A stretch of 64,000 bases of DNA. Origin: Escherichia phage ECO319P1. Positions 4,317-36,060 of the stretch are shown one piece after another. The notes below the pieces were generated by a model. It did not search any database and was not told the DNA's origin. It worked only from the letters and a program-made list of their open reading frames with translations. Every line of letters begins with the position of its first letter. The first letter of the stretch is position 1. Position numbers and translations under genes: made by a program. The stretch lies in the sequence record OP172790. The stretch is one strand, 5' to 3'.

Positions 4317-5114
4317 ATGCGTAAGATTTACTTAGGTTCAGACCCAGAGCTGTTTACTCGTGATGCAAACGGCCTCGTATCATCTGTAGCTGGTAAGCTC
4401 GGTGCTGATAAGTATCACAAACGCCATGTCACGGACGACATTCGCATTCAGGAAGATAACGTGCTGGTTGAATTTGATATCAACCCGCATGGCACATTTG
4501 CAGGGTTCAACGATAACATGATGCGTGGTATCGCTGCCTGTAATGACGCTGCGAAATCTGTCGGTCACGAAGTTGACCTGACTATCTGCTCTCACGTTTT
4601 CAGCGATGCAGAGCTTCGTACTTTCCACAAAGACGCATTCGTGTTTGGCTGTGAGCCAGACTTCAATGCCCTGACTGGTTCTCGTAATGCGAAACCGGCT
4701 GCTGCGGATGTAGGTCTGCGTACTGCCGGTGGTCATATTCATATCGGTTATAACGAAGACCGCAACGTTGACTCTGAATCTCAGAAGATTCTGGGTGTAA
4801 TGTGTGATTACTTCCTCGGTATGCCAGCTATCCTTCTGGATGGTGACGACCGTCGTAAAGAACTGTATGGTAAAGCTGGAGCTTGCCGCTTCAAAACCTA
4901 CGGTATCGAGTATCGTGTTCTGTCCAACTTCTGGACTCTGGACGATAAGATGCGTCTGTGGGCTTGGGAACAGGCTCATAAAGCATACGACTTCACTGTT
5001 GGTGATGCAATGGTGTTGGCGTCAATTGTTGACCCGGAAGAAATTCAGCGTGTCATTAATAACAATGACAAGGCAATGGCTGAACATTACATCAAGCTGC
5101 TGGAGATTATGTAA
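4317..5114 (+). CDS. putative carboxylate-amine (COOH-NH2) ligase, amidoligase family paralog A
   Basis: Motifs GSDPELF (acidic pair), GGHIHIG (His-x-His), GIEYRV (Glu-x-Arg) matching the pattern of the neighbouring ligase paralog and of glutamine-synthetase-like amidoligases. Confidence 0.55.
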   Translation: MRKIYLGSDPELFTRDANGLVSSVAGKLGADKYHKRHVTDDIRIQEDNVLVEFDINPHGTFAGFNDNMMRGIAACNDAAKSVGHEVDLTICSHVFSDAELRTFHKDAFVFGCEPDFNALTGSRNAKPAAADVGLRTAGGHIHIGYNEDRNVDSESQKILGVMCDYFLGMPAILLDGDDRRKELYGKAGACRFKTYGIEYRVLSNFWTLDDKMRLWAWEQAHKAYDFTVGDAMVLASIVDPEEIQRVINNNDKAMAEHYIKLLEIM

Positions 5115-7232: not shown

Positions 7233-9203
7233 ATGTGTGGGATTGTTCTCGCTGGTGGTAACTTAATCGCTCGTGATGTTGAACTGTTCGGTCGTCTACT
7301 GTATGCAGATATCGTTCGTGGTGAGCATTCAACGGGTGTGTTCGCAGGGTTTCGTCCTTTTGGTCATGACCCAATCCTGAAACTTCGTAAAGCCGCTGTT
7401 CCGGCAGATATCTTCTTACGCCGCAAAGAGTTATGGGGTGAAGTGCGTGAACACGCAGTTCCTTCAAAGACTGTTGCAAATTCTTTCACAACTGCCTATC
7501 CGAAATTTATGGTAGGCCACAACCGTTATGCAACTCAGGGTGCAATTAACGATACGAACGCTCACCCGTTCAACCACGGTAAAATCACTCTGGTTCACAA
7601 TGGTACATTGACTGACCAGTCTCTGCTCCCAGACCATAAGAACTTCGCTGTTGACAGTGAAAACGTCGCATGGTCAATCAACAAAATCGGTATTGATGAA
7701 ACTATTCAGAAATTGAATGGTGCATTCACTCTGGTTTGGCATAACGCCGAAGACAGCACGGTGAACATCATCCGTAACGAAGAACGTCCATTCCATCTGG
7801 TTGAAACAACTGGTGGTGATTGGTTCGGTGCTTCGGAAGAAGACATGCTTCTGTGGTTAATTAACCGCAAGAAGTTTGCTCCAACAATCAAACGTCACTT
7901 TGAATGTGAAGTAGGTGTTCAGTACGTCTTTGACGTATCCGAAGGCTTCAAGTTCAAGGAGGAACGGAAGCATACGCTTCCAACCTTTCGCTCATATTCC
8001 TACACTGGAAGAACTGGTGGTTATTGGTATGACCAGTGGGATGATGACTATGGGTACGGAAACGGACGAGGAACTTCAACAACTTCTCGCAACCAATCCA
8101 ATAGCCAGAGCTTTAGCTCAAGCTCTTCTAGCGTAACACCGGACAGCCGTTACAAGCAGTTCAATGATATGCTGGAAAGCCACGGCATCAACGTCAAAAT
8201 GGGTGAGCAACTCCGCTTCGAGAGCTTCCAGTTTGACCAGTATCCTAAGTCTCTGGGCAAGGGTAAAATGACCGGGTATACTGGCACTGGCGAGTATATT
8301 GAGGTTCAGGCTCACGGCACTGATATGGGCATCTTTGTTGAAGGTGCTGAGTACGATGGTAAGATTATCTCGTGCTATGAGCAGAATTACATTCTGACAA
8401 TTATCGTTCAAGACCCAAAACCTGCTCATGTTAATCAGACACTGACCCTCGGTGATTTGGTTAACTCGGCGGCAAAGGAAACTCCAATTCCTGATACAGG
8501 GATTAGTCAGGAAGAGTTGAACGAAGAGTACTACGGTGACGAGGAAGAAGACGACGGCAACGAAGTCGAAGTAACCTTGAACGGTGAGGTGTACTCAAAA
8601 AAGGAATGGGAGGGAAACGACTCATTAAATACTTGCGCAAACTGTTCCTCTCCAATCCCCTTCGACGACGTGATTGATACGGTTGTCGATAATGGCGCTG
8701 CATTCTGCCATGATTGCGCAAAGCATTACAACCTGTTACCCCCTGAGACGGAGGAGCCAATTGCTCCTAACCGTTTCGTCTGCCAAAGCTGTGCCAACGA
8801 ATTGCCGGAAGATTTAGAATCGGCAAAGCCGGGTGTCTGCATTCCTTGTCTTTGCGCTGTAACTAAAGACAACAATACGGAAATGGCACGTCAACAGTTA
8901 ATCGAAAAGTACGACCGTTGGGAATCCAATTTGATGCCAGAGGAAGTGGTCACTCCACTGCTTCCGAAACCAACTGAAGTCTCTCTCGGTGAAATTTCAC
9001 TGATTCGCAAGAAGTTGAAAAACAACTTGCTGGTTACTGTTAAGCAGTGGATGAAGATGAACAACTGTGGTTGGTGTCAAAAGCCAATCCAGTGGGTTGA
9101 TGCTGAAGCCACTGAATTTGTTGGTCAGCAGCCATGCTGTCCGGGATGCTCCAAGAAATTAGAGATGGGCATCCTTCCAAAACCTATCAATAAGGATAAA
9201 TGA
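7233..9203 (+). CDS. class-II glutamine amidotransferase-like (Ntn, Cys2) protein with C-terminal multi-CxxC zinc-ribbon region
   Basis: Begins MCGIVLAGG (nucleophile Cys directly after Met) with NRYATQG...HPF motifs of Ntn GATase-II; Ser-rich linker; C-terminal CxxC pairs (CANC..CHDC, CQSC..CIPC, CGWC..CPGC). Confidence 0.7.
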   Translation: MCGIVLAGGNLIARDVELFGRLLYADIVRGEHSTGVFAGFRPFGHDPILKLRKAAVPADIFLRRKELWGEVREHAVPSKTVANSFTTAYPKFMVGHNRYATQGAINDTNAHPFNHGKITLVHNGTLTDQSLLPDHKNFAVDSENVAWSINKIGIDETIQKLNGAFTLVWHNAEDSTVNIIRNEERPFHLVETTGGDWFGASEEDMLLWLINRKKFAPTIKRHFECEVGVQYVFDVSEGFKFKEERKHTLPTFRSYSYTGRTGGYWYDQWDDDYGYGNGRGTSTTSRNQSNSQSFSSSSSSVTPDSRYKQFNDMLESHGINVKMGEQLRFESFQFDQYPKSLGKGKMTGYTGTGEYIEVQAHGTDMGIFVEGAEYDGKIISCYEQNYILTIIVQDPKPAHVNQTLTLGDLVNSAAKETPIPDTGISQEELNEEYYGDEEEDDGNEVEVTLNGEVYSKKEWEGNDSLNTCANCSSPIPFDDVIDTVVDNGAAFCHDCAKHYNLLPPETEEPIAPNRFVCQSCANELPEDLESAKPGVCIPCLCAVTKDNNTEMARQQLIEKYDRWESNLMPEEVVTPLLPKPTEVSLGEISLIRKKLKNNLLVTVKQWMKMNNCGWCQKPIQWVDAEATEFVGQQPCCPGCSKKLEMGILPKPINKDK

Positions 9204-21979: not shown

Positions 21980-22483
21980 ATGCCACTTTCAAAGATGGCT
22001 GTTGGGGTTTCCATGAAACTGACGTACAAGAAGGGCTGCCTGATTGCAGCACTGAAGAACAAAGAAGTGGAAGCGATAGCTCACCAAGCTAATTGCTTTT
22101 GCACCATGAAGTCTGGCATAGCACCACAGATTGCTAATGCTTGGCCTCAAGTCCGTGAAGTCGATAAGTTGACTAACTACGGTGACAAGGATAAGATGGG
22201 TTCATACTCACTTGCCACTGTTCCCGAAGGTTTTGTGTTCAACATCTATGGTCAATACCATTGGAATCGGAGAAACGCTGGTTATGGCACTTCTTATGAG
22301 CATCTTGGGATGGGGCTGTCTAGCGTCGCTGACTTTATGGTTAATCATAAGGTTCAAACTTTGGGTCTGCCTCGAATTGGTTGTGGACTTGCTGGAGGCG
22401 ATTGGGGGATTGTAGAACACCTAATCAAACACCACTTTGCACACACCGACATTGAAGTAATTGTCTACGAACTGGAGAAGTAA
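21980..22483 (+). CDS. macro domain protein (ADP-ribose binding/processing); start ambiguous
   Basis: VEAIAHQANC and LPRIGCGLAGGDW resemble macro-domain AIVNAAN and GxGxxG blocks; strong GGAGG RBS at 21932 instead precedes an ATG at 21943 in a different frame. Confidence 0.5.
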   Translation: MPLSKMAVGVSMKLTYKKGCLIAALKNKEVEAIAHQANCFCTMKSGIAPQIANAWPQVREVDKLTNYGDKDKMGSYSLATVPEGFVFNIYGQYHWNRRNAGYGTSYEHLGMGLSSVADFMVNHKVQTLGLPRIGCGLAGGDWGIVEHLIKHHFAHTDIEVIVYELEK

Positions 22484-23610
22484 TGTTAAAGTTAAAAGTA
22501 CTGGAAGAACTCGGTAAGCCATACAAAATCTTCACAGACCATGTGGAGAGCAGTGCTATTGAGCAGTTTGTTGCAGTGATGCAGCAGCCTGATGTGAAAC
22601 AAGGTGCATTAATGCCTGATGTTCATGCAGGTTATGTTCTGCCAATTGGTGGTGTAGTTGCTACTGAGTGGACAATCTACCCATCGTTTGTCGGTTACGA
22701 CATTGGTTGTGGTGTCTGCACCATGCCAACGGATATCAGTGCTCTCGACTTACTGGAAAACCCAGCTAAGTATAAAGCAGCAGTTGAAAAGGTTGTACCT
22801 GTGGGCTTCACTGTCCATCAGCAACCATTCGACTTAGCTGAACTGGAACGCCACATTGGTCGTGCTCCAGAAAGTATTCGTGACATTGCTGAGAGCCATC
22901 TGACTCAGGTTGGTACTCTTGGTGGTGGTAATCACTTTGTTGAAATCGGTATCGCTGAGAAAGATGGTCGTGTTCACATCAGCATTCACTCAGGCTCTCG
23001 TGGCATGGGTGCTCGTGTTGCTGAGAAATACATGCAGCTTTCAGGTGGTGAAGGTATCAACCCAATTGACACTCGTGAACCACTTGGTCGTGAGTATCTG
23101 GCTGCTATGAATTACTGCTTACGTTGGGCATTGTTCAACCGTAAGATGATGGTTAAGAATATTATGGAAGAGTTAGGTCTGGAGTTTAACACCTATCGTA
23201 CACCTGATATCTTCATCAACCGTAATCATAACCACGCAGAATTCAAGGATGGTTTGTGGATTCATCGTAAGGGAGCTACACATGCTGAAGATGGAATGTT
23301 CGGCGTTATCCCAGCTAACATGCGTGATGGAGTTTACATTGTACGTGGGCGCGGTAACCCTGACTCTCTTTGCTCTTCTTCTCACGGCGCTGGTCGTGTC
23401 ATGTCTCGGTCAAAAGCCAAAAAGACTTTCTCTCTGGAAGACTTCCAGTATCAGATGGGTAATGTCGATGCTGATGGGTTTACTATTGATGAAAAGCGTA
23501 TTGACGAAGCACCGGGTGCATATAAAGACATTCACGAAGTGATGAAAAATCAGACTGACTTGATTGACATCATTGACCATGTTAAACCAGTTGTAAACGT
23601 TAAGGGTTAA
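22483..23610 (+). CDS. rtcB: RtcB-type RNA ligase
   Basis: Hallmark RtcB blocks MPDVHAGY, GGGNHFVEI, NHNHAEF, SSSHGAGR. Confidence 0.9.
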   Translation: MLKLKVLEELGKPYKIFTDHVESSAIEQFVAVMQQPDVKQGALMPDVHAGYVLPIGGVVATEWTIYPSFVGYDIGCGVCTMPTDISALDLLENPAKYKAAVEKVVPVGFTVHQQPFDLAELERHIGRAPESIRDIAESHLTQVGTLGGGNHFVEIGIAEKDGRVHISIHSGSRGMGARVAEKYMQLSGGEGINPIDTREPLGREYLAAMNYCLRWALFNRKMMVKNIMEELGLEFNTYRTPDIFINRNHNHAEFKDGLWIHRKGATHAEDGMFGVIPANMRDGVYIVRGRGNPDSLCSSSHGAGRVMSRSKAKKTFSLEDFQYQMGNVDADGFTIDEKRIDEAPGAYKDIHEVMKNQTDLIDIIDHVKPVVNVKG

Positions 23611-32459: not shown

Positions 32460-33548
32460 ATGAAAAAAGAGCTATTTGCTGTTGATAAGAACGACAACAT
32501 TAAACATTGGACTGTCGAAACTAATGGTGCTGAGATTATTGTCTGTCATGGACGATACCAAGGCAAGATGCAGAAGAAAGTGACAGTCTGTAAAGCTAAG
32601 AATATTGGGAGGGCGAATGAAACAACACCCGAAGACCAAGCGATTCTGGAAGCAGAAGCTAAGTACACCAAGCAAATCGACAAGTGCTATCGGGCGACTA
32701 TTGAAGAGGCAAGACGAGTCGGTCAAGTCCTTCCTATGCTCGCTCATAATTTCCTTGACCACGGGCATCGTATTAGCTTTCCTTGCTATGTCAGTGCTAA
32801 GCTGGATGGTGTACGATGCGTTGCAACTGTGGAAGATGGTGCTGTCACACTAACAAGTCGTGGTGGTAAGGAATATCCTTGCCCAGAGGCAATTCATGAT
32901 GAACTGGTTCACCTTAGTTATCTCACTGGAATTACTAAGTTTGATGGCGAGCTTTATATTCATGGTACGAAGCTTCAACACATTGTGTCGGCTGTTAAAA
33001 AACCTAACGACTTGACTCCGAAGTTGAAGTATTGTATCTTTGACTTACCGAACACTGATAAGTGGGAAGACCGTTGGTTAAAGCTCAAAGACATTAAGAA
33101 TAAATATCGTCTTGACCACATGGAAATCGTTGATTGTATCAAAGTTGAGAACAAACTCTCAGCGGAAATGATGCTTCACAAATACATGGGTCAAGGTTAC
33201 GAGGGTCTGATGCTTCGTAATCTGGATGGGAAGTATGAATACAACCATCGTTCAGCAGATTTACAGAAGTGGAAAATCATGCAAGACCTCGAAGCCAAGG
33301 TAATTAGTGTTGCAGAAGATAAGAATGGTGAGGGTGTCCTGACTTGCCATATAGCGGGTGAACCCGATAAAATCTTCGATGTTAAAATGCGTGGGACACA
33401 TGAGGAACGTCTGGTTGACAATCAGAAGAAGTTGATTGGCAAGTGGATTGTTGTTATTTATCAGGCATTTACAGAAGCAGGGTTGCCTCAGTTCCCGGTA
33501 GGCAGCCATGTCCGTGAATGTGATGAAGAGGGGAACCCAATTGAATAA
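32460..33548 (+). CDS. ATP-dependent DNA ligase
   Basis: Adenylation motif I SAKLDGVRC (KxDG); size and context like T7 ligase. Confidence 0.85.
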   Translation: MKKELFAVDKNDNIKHWTVETNGAEIIVCHGRYQGKMQKKVTVCKAKNIGRANETTPEDQAILEAEAKYTKQIDKCYRATIEEARRVGQVLPMLAHNFLDHGHRISFPCYVSAKLDGVRCVATVEDGAVTLTSRGGKEYPCPEAIHDELVHLSYLTGITKFDGELYIHGTKLQHIVSAVKKPNDLTPKLKYCIFDLPNTDKWEDRWLKLKDIKNKYRLDHMEIVDCIKVENKLSAEMMLHKYMGQGYEGLMLRNLDGKYEYNHRSADLQKWKIMQDLEAKVISVAEDKNGEGVLTCHIAGEPDKIFDVKMRGTHEERLVDNQKKLIGKWIVVIYQAFTEAGLPQFPVGSHVRECDEEGNPIE

Positions 33549-33864
33549 TGTAGCCGAAGGTGTTCTGAGAGAATTAGAACGTGCTGTAGCAATCGCAGAA
33601 GTTGATGGTGTTCATGAGAAAGTTGCTCTGATTACACTGTTAACTTCAGTGAAACGTGTTGTTCGTGAAATGCGGACTCACTCTACAACGTGTCCTTCCT
33701 GTGGTCAACCTAATATGGGTGCTCACTATTGTGTCGGTTCAATGCAAACTGCAAAGACTGGACTGAGGGATTTGCTCGGTAAAGAAGGTTATTATCGAGA
33801 CAGTTCTGAGATACTCAAGGACGTTTGGCCCGGTTGTGATACGAGTAAGATTGGAGCTTGGTAA
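33508..33864 (+). CDS. hypothetical protein with Cys motif
   Basis: CPSCGQP...HYC; start overlaps ligase 3' end, start uncertain. Confidence 0.4.
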   Translation: MSVNVMKRGTQLNNVAEGVLRELERAVAIAEVDGVHEKVALITLLTSVKRVVREMRTHSTTCPSCGQPNMGAHYCVGSMQTAKTGLRDLLGKEGYYRDSSEILKDVWPGCDTSKIGAW

Positions 33865-34076
33865 TGGCTCGAAAACCACGTAAACCAAAAGTTAAACCGA
33901 TTATCAATGTTTGGGACATGGATGAAGAAACGATTCAGAAGGTTATTACGCATCTGGAGAAGGATTTCCCGCTCTCAGGAATGTTAATCCGTTACAAAGC
34001 AGAGATTGGTCGTCGTAATGACGGCCTTTCCGTTGAAGATTTCTATAAAGTTAAGGAAGACGATGAAGATTTATAA
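33858..34076 (+). CDS. hypothetical protein
   Basis: GGAG RBS, ATG start. Confidence 0.4.
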   Translation: MVMARKPRKPKVKPIINVWDMDEETIQKVITHLEKDFPLSGMLIRYKAEIGRRNDGLSVEDFYKVKEDDEDL

Positions 34077-34620
34077 TGCCGGTCATATGCTTACCCGTGG
34101 TGCTCAGTTCCAACGTCAAGTTGAAAAAGATGAACTGAATAGTGTTGCTGATGATTTACAGTGGTACGACCCGAAGGAAAATAAAGAAATCAACGATAAG
34201 GCTAATCTGGATAATAACGATGGACTCGCTGAGAAGATTGTTCGCCAAGACACAAATGCTCTGTTTTGGGCTGATACTGTGGTCATTGAGCCCCTACCTG
34301 AAGCTCTTGGAACTCATGTCGAACTCGGACAGCTCAAAGGCATGCGGGATATGGCGATTGCGATTGTTAATCTTATCAATAACGCTACCTCCGTCGATGA
34401 TGCTTTTATGCAAATCGGTGCTCTCTGTGACAAACAAATAACTCGTTCTGTATACCCACACTATGAGGATATCCGCAGATTCAAAGGGGCGAATGAGTCC
34501 GAAGACCGTCGTTCTTGGGGTATCAATCAATATGTGTATGGTGTATGCCTTGACTTAACAGACGGTAAGGGTTTATACGACTGGAGCGAGGTTCTGAGGG
34601 AACTTAGCAATGAAGATTGA
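34063..34620 (+). CDS. nucleoside 2-deoxyribosyltransferase-like / dNMP N-hydrolase-like protein
   Basis: N-terminal MKIYNAGHM and ADTVVIEPLPEALGTHVELGQL resembling NDT/Rcl MKIYLAGP and DxGTxFELG (catalytic Glu); AAGGAAG RBS before ATG 34063. Confidence 0.45.
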   Translation: MKIYNAGHMLTRGAQFQRQVEKDELNSVADDLQWYDPKENKEINDKANLDNNDGLAEKIVRQDTNALFWADTVVIEPLPEALGTHVELGQLKGMRDMAIAIVNLINNATSVDDAFMQIGALCDKQITRSVYPHYEDIRRFKGANESEDRRSWGINQYVYGVCLDLTDGKGLYDWSEVLRELSNED

Positions 34621-35014
34621 TATCTACCGCAAGAGAGAGGGGGAAAACGTCGTAGGCTTTCCTATGGCGTTTGCCAGAAAGGTTTATGAGGGTTGCCCCA
34701 TTTTCCAACACCGGGATTTCTCCGAGTTTTTCTTTTCAACATCAATGACAATTCGTAATACCCTTCGTTGGGAGTACGTTGTTACAGATGATGATGGCAA
34801 TGTGACGGCCTCTATGGCTGTCTACAAAGACTTTGATATGCATGTAGGCGAATGCCTTAGTGTATTGGTAGCGTTCAGCACAGACGACCACAGCTTGTTT
34901 AAAGCGTACCGTTGGTTGATGAAGCTGGCAAAAGAAGAGATGTGCCCTTTCGTAGCTTATACACGGAAGACTGGTGATTTTACAATGGATTTAGTTTACA
35001 GGAAGGTTTCATGA
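34610..35014 (+). CDS. hypothetical protein
   Basis: GGGA RBS, ATG start. Confidence 0.5.
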   Translation: MKIDIYRKREGENVVGFPMAFARKVYEGCPIFQHRDFSEFFFSTSMTIRNTLRWEYVVTDDDGNVTASMAVYKDFDMHVGECLSVLVAFSTDDHSLFKAYRWLMKLAKEEMCPFVAYTRKTGDFTMDLVYRKVS

Positions 35015-35280
35015 GCGCATTAGATACTATGGTAGGTGGTTCACATTATCAAGCTGAAGGTGGTATTCAGCCAATTCAGTTCTATCATGCAAATCCACAG
35101 CTTGACTTTCAACAGTGTAATATGATTAAATACGCATATCGACACAAAGATAAGAACGGTTTGCAGGACTTACTGAAGGTTATTCACTATGCGCTGCTCG
35201 AAGCTGAGTTTGACTACGGTGACGACAAAGATAAGTTCGAAGCGTTTAAGGAGCAAGTACGTGGCCTCGTCAAAATCTAA
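35011..35280 (+). CDS. hypothetical protein
   Basis: GGAAGG RBS, ATG overlapping upstream stop. Confidence 0.5.
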   Translation: MSALDTMVGGSHYQAEGGIQPIQFYHANPQLDFQQCNMIKYAYRHKDKNGLQDLLKVIHYALLEAEFDYGDDKDKFEAFKEQVRGLVKI

Positions 35281-35376
35281 AAAGAAAGAAAAGAAAGAGG
35301 AGGCTCCGAAGGAGTTCTCCCCTGAAGTGATAGAAGCTGTACGAAAAGAACTCGAATCGCTTCCATTTTAATCAAA

Positions 35377-35397
35377 TAATTATTGCACATTATAATA
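35377..35397 (+). promoter_or_regulatory. copy 3 of conserved 21-bp motif TAATTATTGCACATTATAATA
   Basis: Identical to copy 2; 43 bp upstream of ATG 35440. Confidence 0.5.
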
Positions 35398-35439
35398 GAG
35401 TTCTTTCTTAACACAATTCAAAAGGATTTGTCAATACTT

Positions 35440-36060
35440 ATGTTAAAATTTATTTGGTCTATTATAGCCACTGTAGGTGTACTTGCTTCCTGTTACATAT
35501 CTGATGCTTCTCCTATCATCACAACAGCTTCTGTCATTGGTGTCTTATTTGTTCTTGGTGTAGCTTTCAAGAATGCTTGGACAAACCTGTTAGGTGCTGC
35601 ATTAACGCTGATATATGGATACCTTTCTTACAGTGCAGGTTATTATGCTAACGCACTGATAAATGTGACAGTGCTATTCCCACTACAGTTAATAGCTTTC
35701 TGGTTCTGGAAGAAGACAGAAGGTAAGACGTTTACATTAACTGAAGATTGGAAGAAAGCAATCATAGTGTTATCTGGTATAGGTATCCTCATTTCCTGCA
35801 CACTGACTAAATCCTATGGTTCACATCTTTGGCTTCATGATGGAATCTCAGCGGTATTAGTTATTGTTGCTACTTTCCTCCTGATGTTAAAAGTGAAAGA
35901 ACAGTGGTATGCTTGGATTCCTTATAATGCACTTGAAGTGTTTATGTGGTTCATGGCTGCTTCTTTAAATCCTGATATGTTGGCTATCTTTGTGATGCGT
36001 AGCATCTTCTTTGCTAACTCTCTGATTGGTGCTTACGAGTGGTTCGGTAAGAAATCTTAA
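35440..36060 (+). CDS. polytopic membrane protein, possibly PnuC-like nicotinamide riboside transporter
   Basis: 7-8 predicted TM helices, Trp-rich; segment ALINVTVLFPLQLIAFWFW reminiscent of PnuC; tentative. Track start 35383 lies inside conserved motif. Confidence 0.4.
   Translation: MLKFIWSIIATVGVLASCYISDASPIITTASVIGVLFVLGVAFKNAWTNLLGAALTLIYGYLSYSAGYYANALINVTVLFPLQLIAFWFWKKTEGKTFTLTEDWKKAIIVLSGIGILISCTLTKSYGSHLWLHDGISAVLVIVATFLLMLKVKEQWYAWIPYNALEVFMWFMAASLNPDMLAIFVMRSIFFANSLIGAYEWFGKKS

What the first reader, a model, noticed from the sequence alone, without database searches (positions are those of the whole stretch)
34063..34620. Nucleoside 2-deoxyribosyltransferase / dNMP N-hydrolase-like gene
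The N-terminal MKIYNAGHM and an internal GTHVELG segment resemble the nucleotide-binding start and catalytic Glu motif of NDT/Rcl-type enzymes. In a phage this could serve nucleotide salvage, base exchange linked to DNA modification, or hydrolysis of a nucleotide signal.
Basis: inference. Interest (0 to 1): 0.45.

Follow-up and report, generated by a model that had tools for sequence, protein, structure and literature searches.

The report
Phage deoxyribosyl-transferase gene linked to importers
This is a real phage gene for a base-swapping enzyme of the nucleoside deoxyribosyltransferase superfamily, already labelled as such in related phages, but its altered sugar pocket and its usual neighbours (a membrane importer, sometimes a nucleotide kinase) suggest it re-bases DNA building blocks rather than acting as a textbook NDT.

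Summary
The ORF is real: 34063-34620 (+), 185 aa, good ribosome-binding site, both quoted motifs present. The window is a Grimontviridae phage, about 88% identical to Cronobacter phages A24 and GAP52, whose orthologue RefSeq already calls "nucleoside 2-deoxyribosyltransferase".

Across 170 members the Tyr4-Asp63-Glu87 triad, the transferase-type Pro37 and Asn155 are conserved. The Asp that holds the sugar 5'-OH in true NDTs is always Ala or Gly, and Arg18, Arg138 and Arg149/150 are near-invariant.

In 27 of 41 dereplicated phage loci a transporter gene follows within 4 kb: a uracil-permease-like NCS2, PnuC-like as here, or an unnamed multi-pass membrane protein. One member is fused to a guanylate-kinase-like NMP kinase and abuts a PnuC-like gene. 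Others abut a dNMP kinase or a dUTPase.

Best reading: a covalent-Glu 2'-deoxyribosyl transferase in an import, base-exchange and phosphorylation salvage module. It possibly works on dNMPs, like the recently described DmtZ. Substrates are inferred, not shown. There is no evidence for DNA modification or for hydrolysis of a signalling nucleotide.

The parts
34063..34620 (+). NDT-superfamily gene, 185 aa, PHROG 1817. Key codons: Y4 at 34072-34074, P37, D63 at 34249-34251, A81 at 34303-34305 (the position of the 5'-OH Asp in NDTs), E87 nucleophile at 34321-34323, then R138, R149/R150 and N155.
34053..34059 (+). Shine-Dalgarno-like AAGGAAG, ending 3 nt before the ATG.
   Evidence: Read directly from the sequence.
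33858..34076 (+). Small conserved upstream ORF (72 aa, cluster c70) overlapping the NDT-like start by 14 nt. Function unknown.
   Evidence: It recurs in L001, L002, L008 and L011. No Pfam or PHROG hit.
34610..35014 (+). 134-aa protein of unknown function (phrog_3986). Its start overlaps the NDT-like stop by 11 nt. In relatives it travels with DUF3310 rather than strictly with the NDT-like gene.
   Evidence: It is unrelated to the L008 dNMP kinase.
35011..35280 (+). DUF3310 protein, 89 aa. RefSeq relatives label it 'nucleotide kinase', but it covers only the C-terminal part of the kinase PHROG profile.
   Evidence: PF11753, 2.1e-10; phrog_26149, positions 92-173 of 176.
35440..36060 (+). PnuC-like Pnu-family transporter, 206 aa. 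It belongs to the subclade that is always found next to NDT-like genes, and two or three of the four NR-coordinating polar residues of NmPnuC are replaced.
   Evidence: PF04973, 2.5e-25; TIGR01528, 66.4 bits.

Best explanation
The gene encodes a phage-specific member of the nucleoside 2'-deoxyribosyltransferase/DNPH1 superfamily. Glu87, positioned by Tyr4 and assisted by Asp63, most likely attacks C1' of a 2'-deoxyribosyl substrate. This releases the base, forms a covalent deoxyribosyl-enzyme intermediate, and passes the sugar to a different free base (base exchange), with hydrolysis as a possible side reaction. It is one step of a small salvage module. A membrane importer encoded just downstream (PnuC-like here, a uracil-permease-like NCS2 transporter in other lineages) supplies a base or nucleoside. 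The enzyme re-bases deoxyribosyl units that come from host DNA breakdown or from outside the cell. Nucleotide kinases then push the product towards dNTPs, which suits a 44% GC phage. The Asp that binds the 5'-OH in true NDTs is replaced by Ala or Gly, conserved arginines lie in the active-site loop, and one member is fused to an NMP kinase. For these reasons I think the substrate may well be a dNMP, meaning deoxyribose-5-phosphate transfer as in DmtZ, rather than a nucleoside. Shown: fold class, catalytic residues, the altered 5' pocket, gene linkage and the fusion. Inferred: the chemistry, the deoxy specificity, the phosphate on the substrate, the transporter's cargo and the physiological role.

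For: Residues over 170 sequences: Y4 in 163 of 163, D63 in 170, E87 in 170, P37 in 164 of 167, N155 in 163. The position six residues before the Glu is Ala in 157 and Gly in 13, never Asp or Ser. R18 is in 164, R138 in 170, R149 in 168 and R150 in 165.

Residue roles come from papers. In CtNDT the triad is Y7/D62/E88, and D82 (six before the Glu) and N118 contact the 5'-OH (PMC10913048). In DNPH1, S98 and S128' hold the phosphate (PMC10603095). Tyr rather than Phe marks deoxy rather than ribo specificity (PMC4081090, PMC10603095). DmtZ has small uncharged residues in its 5'-phosphate pocket, and its Pro is a transferase marker (PMC12884076).

Context: 27 of 41 dereplicated loci have a transporter within 4 kb downstream on the same strand (16 NCS2, 8 PnuC-like, 3 c111), and none of these families appears elsewhere in the +-10 kb loci. 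P0183 is a guanylate-kinase-like domain fused to the NDT-like domain, with a PnuC-like gene 10 nt downstream. In L008 the order is NDT-like, a 58-aa ORF, DNMK-type dNMP kinase, PnuC-like. In L012 and L019 a dUTPase-domain protein follows the NDT-like gene. Other regular neighbours are DNA ligase, RNR, NrdD and dNMP kinase. The window is 44.2% GC.
Confidence: 0.55

Rival explanations
1. It is a classical nucleoside 2'-deoxyribosyltransferase, as annotated. It exchanges bases between free deoxynucleosides. In Enterobacteria, whose only deoxynucleoside kinase to my knowledge is Tdk, this would funnel deoxyribose onto thymine or uracil. The PnuC-like protein would act as a PnuN-type deoxynucleoside importer.
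For: The triad, the transferase Pro37 and the 5'-OH Asn155 are conserved. Some family members pass the Pfam NDT cut-off (P0121 at 36.4 bits, P0138 at 36.5 bits). A PnuN deoxynucleoside-transporter subfamily has been predicted (PMC7749635). Thymidine kinase lies nearby in L007 and L008. Vibrio phage AG74 carries a T5-type dNMP 5'-phosphatase, which produces deoxynucleosides.
Against: The Asp six residues before the Glu, present in the bona fide NDTs aligned here, is Ala or Gly in all 170 members. The near-invariant arginines have no role in nucleoside-level NDTs. The fused or adjacent kinases are NMP or dNMP kinases, not nucleoside kinases.
Confidence: 0.27
2. It is a pure dNMP N-glycosidase of the DNPH1/Rcl type. 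It destroys particular dNMPs, for example to deplete or sanitise a pool, and the released base leaves through the neighbouring transporter.
Against: The phosphate-binding serines of DNPH1 and MilB are absent: Ala81 stands in place of S98/S97, and Asn155 in place of S128'. Pro37, reported as conserved in transferases and absent in hydrolases, is near-invariant (PMC12884076). Wasting dNMPs is hard to reconcile with the biosynthetic neighbours (RNR, dNMP kinase) and with an NMP-kinase fusion.
Confidence: 0.08
3. It belongs to the phage NAD+ module and acts on nicotinamide riboside or NMN brought in by PnuC, either as a glycohydrolase or base-exchange enzyme, or by using the pyridinium riboside as an activated ribosyl donor.
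For: It is adjacent to a PnuC-like gene that passes the NR-transporter equivalog model. A24 and AG74 both encode NAMPT and Prs but no annotated NMNAT or NadR. An SPbeta-like phage has PnuC plus a NadR-like gene 8 kb away. NARP3 shows that phage PnuC can import NR (PMC13464706).
Against: Tyr4 is invariant, and MilB, the riboside-specific relative, has Phe at this position (PMC10603095). In most lineages the partner transporter is a uracil-permease-like NCS2 protein, not PnuC. The NDT-linked PnuC-like proteins have lost two or three of the four NR-coordinating residues. The fused kinase resembles guanylate kinase, not NR kinase. No NadR-like partner is adjacent.
Confidence: 0.07
4. It is an anti-defence enzyme that cleaves the glycosidic bond of a nucleotide immune signal.
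Against: The catalytic residues match NDT/DNPH1, not TIR. The gene sits among replication and nucleotide-metabolism genes. It is linked to importers and kinases rather than to anti-defence islands. No known anti-defence family appeared among the Pfam and PHROG hits.
Confidence: 0.03

Closest known systems
Nucleoside 2'-deoxyribosyltransferases (Pfam PF05014; L. leichmannii NDT, C. thermalis CtNDT, B. psychrosaccharolyticus 6EVS, D. psychrophila 7O62)
   Same: Flavodoxin-like fold. The Tyr/Asp/Glu triad is shared (Y4/D63/E87 here, Y7/D62/E88 in CtNDT), as are the Y-x-P-x-x-N segment with the transferase Pro, the D-x(7)-N loop and the G-x-x-x-E motif (PMC10913048).
7M5H, an uncharacterised 'conserved protein' from Enterococcus faecalis V583 (deposited as an NDT)
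   Different: 7M5H keeps the Asp six residues before the Glu (IDAGVASE) and lacks the DRRS arginines. It has no published activity that I could find.
DmtZ of Z-genome phages (Gordonia phage Ghobes AOE44404.1; PMC12884076)
   Same: It is a phage NDT-superfamily enzyme with a Tyr/(Asn or Asp)/Glu triad, the transferase Pro and non-acidic residues in the 5' pocket. It was shown to hydrolyse dAMP and to transfer deoxyribose-5-phosphate to a free base. It is paired with a Dut-like enzyme, as some family members are here (L012, L019).
   Different: There is no detectable sequence relationship (hhalign probability 0.2%). No PurZ or Z-genome context appears in this phage lineage (A24 annotation). DmtZ has no transporter partner reported.
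DNPH1/Rcl and MilB/BlsM (d)NMP N-glycosidases
   Same: Same triad geometry. The GTHVE[LI]G motif is identical to MilB's. A small residue replaces the Asp six positions before the Glu.
   Different: The phosphate-binding serines (S98 and S128' in DNPH1, S97 in MilB) and the Arg six residues after the Tyr are absent. Pro37 is present. MilB has Phe where this family has Tyr.
Pnu transporter plus trapping-enzyme pairs (PnuC-NadR, phage NARP3; predicted PnuN)
   Same: A Pnu-family facilitator is encoded next to cytoplasmic enzymes that convert its cargo, and in L073 the partner includes a P-loop kinase (PMC5749112 for the trapping principle).
   Different: The partner here is an NDT-like enzyme, with or without an NMP kinase, instead of NadR. 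The NR-coordinating residues are partly replaced. The cargo is unknown.

Membership tests
Nucleoside 2'-deoxyribosyltransferase (PF05014) | Score above Pfam's gathering threshold | tested here: not met
   17.8 bits against a cut-off of 28.8. Some other family members do pass (P0121 at 36.4, P0138 at 36.5, P0174 at 31.7).
Nucleoside 2'-deoxyribosyltransferase (PF05014) | NDT-type flavodoxin-like fold | tested here: met
Nucleoside 2'-deoxyribosyltransferase (PF05014) | Catalytic triad: Tyr, Asp and the Glu nucleophile (CtNDT Y7/D62/E88) | tested here: met
   Y4, D63 and E87 align with the triad in the profile alignments and are invariant in 170 sequences.
Nucleoside 2'-deoxyribosyltransferase (PF05014) | Asp six residues before the Glu, contacting the sugar 5'-OH (LlNDT D92, CtNDT D82) | tested here: not met
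   Ala81 in the window. Ala in 157 and Gly in 13 of the 170 family sequences, never Asp. The NDTs aligned here (7M5H, 7O62, 6EVS, CtNDT) all have Asp (PMC10913048).
Nucleoside 2'-deoxyribosyltransferase (PF05014) | Asn contacting the 5'-OH (LlNDT N123, CtNDT N118) | tested here: inconclusive
   N155 (163 of 170) fits the N-x-x-x-x-G pattern and the D-x(7)-N spacing. However, the alignment of this region rests on a weak second HMM domain to 7M5H and on motif matching.
Nucleoside 2'-deoxyribosyltransferase (PF05014) | Conserved Pro after strand 2, reported for all transferases | tested here: met
   P37 aligns with the Pro of 7M5H, 7O62, 6EVS and CtNDT and is present in 164 of 167 sequences (PMC12884076).
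Nucleoside 2'-deoxyribosyltransferase (PF05014) | Transglycosylation between a deoxynucleoside and a free base | not testable with these tools
   This needs an enzyme assay.
DNPH1/Rcl dNMP N-hydrolase | Phosphate pocket: Ser six residues before the Glu (S98) and Ser from the partner subunit (S128') | tested here: not met
   Ala81 and Asn155 occupy these positions (PMC10603095).
DNPH1/Rcl dNMP N-hydrolase | Tyr/Asp/Glu triad | tested here: met
   DNPH1 chains are hit by the broad profile at E of about 5e-3 over the D63-E87 segment.
MilB/BlsM CMP hydrolases | Phe in place of the triad Tyr (ribose specificity) and Arg six residues after it | tested here: not met
   Tyr4 is invariant, and the position six residues later is Leu or Met (PMC4081090, PMC10603095).
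DmtZ (dAMP hydrolase / deoxyribose-5-phosphate transferase) | Sequence relationship to DmtZ | tested here: not met
   hhalign of the family alignment A1 against Ghobes DmtZ gives probability 0.2% and E = 0.36.
DmtZ (dAMP hydrolase / deoxyribose-5-phosphate transferase) | Triad plus transferase Pro plus non-acidic 5' pocket | tested here: met
   Y4, D63, E87, P37 and A81/G83, compared with Y6, N77, E103, P57 and V98/G99 in DmtZ (PMC12884076; sequence read).
DmtZ (dAMP hydrolase / deoxyribose-5-phosphate transferase) | Z-genome context (PurZ, DatZ or DutZ) | tested here: not met
   No PurZ or PurA-like gene is annotated in the close relative A24, and there is no Dut next to the gene in the window. 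A dUTPase is adjacent only in L012 and L019.
NARP3 (PnuC plus NadR-like NAD+ salvage) | NadR-like bifunctional enzyme encoded next to PnuC | tested here: not met
   The genes flanking the window's PnuC-like gene are DUF3310 and a 53-aa ORF. No NadR is annotated in A24 or AG74.
PHROG 1817 | Full-length profile match | tested here: met
   E = 1.8e-60, residues 1-183 against profile positions 7-186 of 192.

The most novel reading that the evidence does not exclude
PHROG 1817 proteins are natural phosphodeoxyribosyltransferases. They move deoxyribose-5-phosphate from one dNMP onto a different free base. Together with a dedicated importer (a Pnu-family protein repurposed from vitamin uptake, or a uracil-type NCS2 permease) and an NMP kinase, they would form a widespread phage route independent of PRPP, RNR and nucleoside kinases. 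This route would convert host-derived dNMPs into the mix that an AT-rich phage genome needs. It would make DmtZ-type chemistry, so far described only in Z-genome phages, a general phage strategy. It would also define a new cargo class for Pnu transporters.
Probability: 0.3. Interest if true: 0.7.

Novelty: new variant of a known kind. Interest (0 to 1): 0.42.

Why it matters
If only the conservative reading holds, this is a correctly annotated auxiliary nucleotide-salvage gene and is ordinary. The findings beyond the annotation are three. First, the family systematically lacks the residue that defines nucleoside binding in NDTs. Second, it carries a conserved arginine set. Third, it is genetically coupled to importers and NMP kinases across unrelated phage families: Grimontviridae, Demerecviridae, Pol III-alpha phages whose close protein matches are named for Bacillus and other Firmicutes, and a large uncultured clade. 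That makes a concrete biochemical prediction that is cheap to test: base exchange at the dNMP level, fed by imported bases. It also flags a subclade of phage 'PnuC' genes, currently all annotated as NMN or NR transporters and now being read as NAD+ counter-defence, that may carry something else. NDT-family enzymes are also valued biocatalysts for nucleoside and nucleotide analogue synthesis, so a natural nucleotide-level transferase family would have practical use.

Tried and rejected
- A single-sequence search against PDB found nothing, and NCBIfam had no model for the family. Profiles were needed.
- The broad alignment A2 was too divergent for the genome-contig scan. A1 found only 6 bacterial loci, mostly tiny contigs, so bacterial context could not be used.
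- I tested whether the window's two small ORFs between the NDT-like and PnuC-like genes (134 aa and DUF3310) are a split version of the dNMP kinase that sits in that place in L008. There was no similarity.
- Typing the PnuC-like protein as NR-specific or deoxynucleoside-specific from binding residues was suggestive (Q196 to T or M, Y242 to F), but not decisive. No PnuN reference sequence was available.
- Direct profile comparison with DmtZ found no relationship.
- The paper on engineered phosphodeoxyribosyltransferases (PMC3585086) is not held. My recollection that F13R, D92S and N123S confer nucleotide use is unverified memory.
- The preprint that assayed phage NDTs gives its sequences only as images, so I could not tell whether the inactive ones belong to this family.
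- The DNA-modification reading found no supporting gene near the locus or in the A24 annotation (no PurZ, DpdA or hydroxymethylase). It was not pursued further and is not chemically excluded.
- The anti-defence reading found no support.
- Most N- or C-terminal extensions of longer family members have no recognisable domain. Only P0183 was informative.
Full report
**1. The observation.**
The ATG is at 34063 and the TGA stop at 34618-34620, giving 185 aa. An AAGGAAG ribosome-binding site lies at 34053-34059. The ORF tool's longer version, starting at a TTG at 34006, is not supported, because all homologues start at MK[IV]Y. The gene overlaps the preceding small ORF by 14 nt and the following ORF by 11 nt, so it sits in a tightly packed operon-like array on the + strand. 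Both quoted motifs are present and conserved far beyond chance.

**2. Where the window comes from.**
Bases 33000-36000 are 87-88% identical to Cronobacter phages A24 and GAP52 (Grimontviridae, Crifsvirus). A shorter stretch, bases 34063-35014 of the window, is 74% identical to Aeromonas phage BUCT695. In the RefSeq records of these phages the orthologue is already named "nucleoside 2-deoxyribosyltransferase". That label derives from PHROG 1817, which this protein matches end to end at E = 1.8e-60. At the level of annotation the finding is therefore already known.

**3. Is it really NDT/Rcl-like?**
- Pfam's NDT model scores only 17.8 bits, below its 28.8-bit cut-off. NCBIfam has no model, and the single sequence finds nothing in PDB.
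- With an alignment of 49 homologues (A1) the profile hits 7M5H, an E. faecalis protein with the NDT fold, at 1.2e-6.
- A broader profile (A2) also hits two bona fide NDTs (7O62 at 2.6e-5, 6EVS at 3e-4), the C. thermalis CtNDT chains (about 1e-3) and human and rat DNPH1 (about 5e-3).

So the protein belongs to the superfamily, but as a divergent branch.

**4. The family.**
There are 503 homologues at 90% clustering. An exhaustive HMMER scan of 1.84 billion cluster representatives gave only 230 at E <= 1e-3. A pattern scan of 185,579 species-representative bacterial genomes gave only 6 loci, most on tiny contigs. This is a compact family that is essentially viral. It is unusually well conserved, at about 50% identity between Grimontviridae, Vibrio Demerecviridae and proteins that NCBI names for Bacillus and Viridibacillus species, one of them on a Pol III-alpha phage contig.

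**5. Diagnostic residues.**
I took residue roles from the structural literature.
- In CtNDT the triad is Y7/D62/E88. D82 (six residues before the Glu) and N118 contact the sugar 5'-OH, and D111 contacts the leaving base (PMC10913048).
- In DNPH1 the triad is Y24/D80/E104, and the 5'-phosphate is held by S98 (six before the Glu) and S128' (PMC10603095).
- MilB has Phe instead of the Tyr, which gives it ribo specificity, and uses R23, S97 and G99 for the phosphate (PMC4081090).
- DmtZ has small uncharged residues instead of the Asp and Asn of the 5' pocket, and retains a Pro described as conserved in all transferases (PMC12884076).

Over 170 distinct family sequences:
- Y4, D63 and E87 are invariant.
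- P37 is present in 164 of 167, and N155 in 163 of 170.
- The position six residues before the Glu is Ala in 157 and Gly in 13, never Asp or Ser. The four NDT-fold proteins aligned here (7M5H, 7O62, 6EVS, CtNDT) all have Asp at that position.
- The family adds near-invariant R18, R138, R149 and R150, and Lys or Arg at position 12.
- R149 and R150 lie between D148 and N155. That pair has the same seven-residue spacing as the base-contacting D111 and the 5'-OH-contacting N118 of CtNDT. This placement in the active-site loop is inference from sequence. I had no model coordinates to measure it.

The protein thus meets the catalytic definition of the superfamily. It looks like a transferase (Pro) with deoxy specificity (Tyr). 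It fails the feature that defines nucleoside 5'-OH binding in NDTs, and it also fails the serine phosphate pocket of DNPH1 and MilB.

**6. Genomic context in the window.**
Upstream lie a flap-endonuclease-like exonuclease and an ATP-dependent DNA ligase. Downstream lie a 134-aa protein of unknown function, a DUF3310 protein, a PnuC-like transporter (PF04973, 2.5e-25) and an endonuclease I.

**7. Genomic context across the family.**
I collected 60 loci: 53 from IMG/VR, several from other sources, and the window. I called ORFs, clustered them and asked which families recur.
- The regular neighbours are nucleotide and DNA metabolism genes: DNA ligase, Pol III alpha, RNR, NrdD, dNMP kinase and dUTPase.
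- The most striking pattern is a transporter gene just downstream on the same strand.
- It is PnuC-like in Grimontviridae-type phages and in Vibrio Demerecviridae. In the Vibrio phages the two genes often abut directly; in AG74 itself a homing-endonuclease gene lies between them.
- It is an NCS2 permease (PF00860, 4.5e-67) in a large clade of uncultured phages and three other sublineages. Its closest NCBIfam model is uracil permease, at 3.1e-77 but below the cut-off.
- It is a multi-pass membrane protein with a weak PQ-loop match (E = 0.031, below the cut-off) in three loci.
- After dereplication at 90% identity, 27 of 41 groups with enough downstream sequence have one of these within 4 kb, with a median gap of 502 nt. 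No member of these three transporter families occurs anywhere else in the +-10 kb loci.

Many of these groups share ancestry, so the number of independent events is much smaller than 27. The PnuC pairing is seen in at least three unrelated phage types, and the NCS2 pairing in several NDT-like subclades.

**8. A Rosetta-stone fusion.**
Among longer family members, P0183 (380 aa) is a continuous fusion of a P-loop kinase to the NDT-like domain.
- The kinase matches phrog_1815 "guanylate kinase" at 3.6e-21. Its closest PDB entry is guanylate kinase 6MFU, with the TTR...R...E...Y.F NMP-binding signature.
- On its 71.9-kb Pol III-alpha phage contig the next gene, 10 nt downstream, is again PnuC-like.
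- In L008 a DNMK-type dNMP kinase (phrog_139, 2.7e-34) lies between the NDT-like and PnuC-like genes.
- In L012 and L019 a dUTPase-domain protein follows the NDT-like gene directly. This recalls the DmtZ-DutZ pairing and fusion (PMC12884076).

The kinases involved act on nucleoside monophosphates. Together with the altered 5' pocket and the arginines, this is why I rate a dNMP-level reaction (deoxyribose-5-phosphate transfer) as a serious possibility.

**9. The transporter.**
The window's PnuC-like protein aligns with N. mucosa PnuC (4QTN, 1.5e-14) and passes the NCBIfam PnuC model. Phage PnuC-like proteins more than 37% identical to it all come from phages with an adjacent NDT-like gene. Those of the jumbo, Tsamsa-like and Yersinia phiR2-01 phages are below 30%, and those of the 140-150-kb Klebsiella and Salmonella phages align over only the C-terminal third.

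The NARP3 paper lists four polar NR-coordinating residues for NmPnuC (PMC13464706). All 13 NDT-linked proteins have Q196 changed to Thr or Met and Y242 changed to Phe. Seven also have Q124 changed to Ser or Thr. N214 and the Trp cage are kept. This fits a changed cargo, and a deoxynucleoside-transporting PnuN subfamily has been predicted (PMC7749635). It does not prove a changed cargo.

The main counter-observation is that A24 and Vibrio phage AG74 both also encode NAMPT and PRPP synthetase, with no annotated NMNAT or NadR. The PnuC-like gene may therefore serve NAD+ salvage with host NadR. I keep an NAD-related role for the NDT-like enzyme as a low-probability rival. Against it stand the invariant Tyr4, the NCS2 partners in other lineages and the guanylate-kinase-type fusion.

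**10. Mechanism proposed.**
Glu87, oriented by Tyr4 and assisted by Asp63, displaces the base of a 2'-deoxyribosyl donor and forms a covalent intermediate. A second base, plausibly delivered by the neighbouring importer, then attacks to give a new deoxynucleoside or dNMP. NMP or dNMP kinases carry the product on. For a 44.2% GC phage on a host I recall as about 57% GC (my own knowledge, not checked here), this would convert surplus G and C deoxyribosyl units into A, T or U ones. Every step of the chemistry and the physiology is inferred. Only the residues, the fold and the gene linkages are shown.

**11. Comparison and novelty.**
The protein is not a textbook NDT, because the 5'-OH Asp is missing. 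It is not DNPH1 or MilB, because the serines are missing and the Pro is present. It is not a DmtZ homologue (hhalign probability 0.2%). It shares DmtZ's combination of features and may work like it.

One preprint reports that several phage PF05014 proteins showed no purine transglycosylation with nucleosides. That is compatible with a non-nucleoside substrate, but those sequences could not be matched to this family.

I rate the finding as a new variant of a known kind. The gene itself is ordinary and already annotated. What is new is the family's altered pocket and its coupling to transporters and NMP kinases, which yields a specific, testable hypothesis.

**12. Verdict.**
- Observation: confirmed.
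- Most likely role: salvage or base exchange.
- DNA modification and signal hydrolysis: unsupported.
- Interest: moderate (0.42).
- Most novel reading not excluded: a widespread natural phosphodeoxyribosyltransferase plus importer module, probability about 0.3, interest about 0.7 if true.

Noticed in passing
window 35440-36060 (+): The PnuC-like transporter belongs to a subclade found only next to NDT-like genes. All 13 such proteins replace NmPnuC Q196 with Thr or Met and Y242 with Phe, and 7 of 13 also replace Q124, while N214 and the Trp cage are kept. All are currently annotated as NMN or NR transporters, and the cargo may differ.
   Followed up: partly
window 35011-35280 (+) and 34610-35014 (+): The 89-aa DUF3310 protein is labelled 'nucleotide kinase' in RefSeq relatives but matches only positions 92-173 of the 176-position kinase PHROG profile. 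It always travels with the 134-aa phrog_3986 protein of unknown function. The pair is unrelated to the P-loop dNMP kinase that occupies the same place in L008.
   Followed up: partly
Cronobacter phage A24 (NC_070973.1, 66597-69139) and Vibrio phage AG74 (NC_055848.1, 106975-110005); just outside the window's left end: Two unrelated phage families that carry the NDT-like/PnuC-like pair both also encode NAMPT and ribose-phosphate pyrophosphokinase but no annotated NMNAT or NadR. This is an incomplete NARP2-like set, and its NMN-to-NAD+ step is unexplained.
   Followed up: no
L002 6949-7311 (Aeromonas phage BUCT695); L018 11192-11596: Small proteins (120-134 aa) next to PnuC-like genes match the YspA/SLOG family (PF10686, 1.2e-8), another nucleotide-binding Rossmannoid domain. 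The BUCT695 one is annotated 'DNA recombination-mediator protein A', which is probably a misannotation. There is no counterpart in the window.
   Followed up: partly
L005 8519-9304 and equivalents in L007, L010, L013, L015-L017, L027, L028: In nine loci, most of which also carry a Pol III-alpha gene within 4.5 kb upstream, the gene directly downstream of the NDT-like gene is a conserved protein of about 222 aa (phrog_8902, unknown function). It has a Nudix-like GX5EX7REx2EE-type stretch but no Pfam hit.
   Followed up: partly
window 4317-5114, 7233-9203, 9714-10913, 14707-15141 (+): By synteny and equal gene length with A24, this is an amidoligase-type set: COOH-NH2 ligase, glutamine amidotransferase, ATP-grasp 'S6 glutaminyl transferase' and gamma-glutamyl cyclotransferase. 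It suggests synthesis or modification of a peptide-like metabolite. I did not examine it directly.
   Followed up: no
window 12620-13585, 21980-22483 and 22483-23610 (+): By synteny with A24, an RNA repair set: RNA ligase 2, a phosphatase and an RtcB-like ligase. This presumably counters tRNA-cleaving host defences. I did not examine it directly.
   Followed up: no
L074 14693-15178 (Gordonia phage Ghobes, KX557278.1): The experimentally characterised DmtZ (AOE44404.1) is still annotated 'deoxyuridine triphosphatase' in GenBank.
   Followed up: yes
L006 6539-7036 (Vibrio phage AG74): A NUMOD4 homing-endonuclease gene is inserted exactly between the NDT-like and PnuC-like genes. These two genes abut directly in the sister phages L021, L022, L024 and L056.
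   Followed up: no
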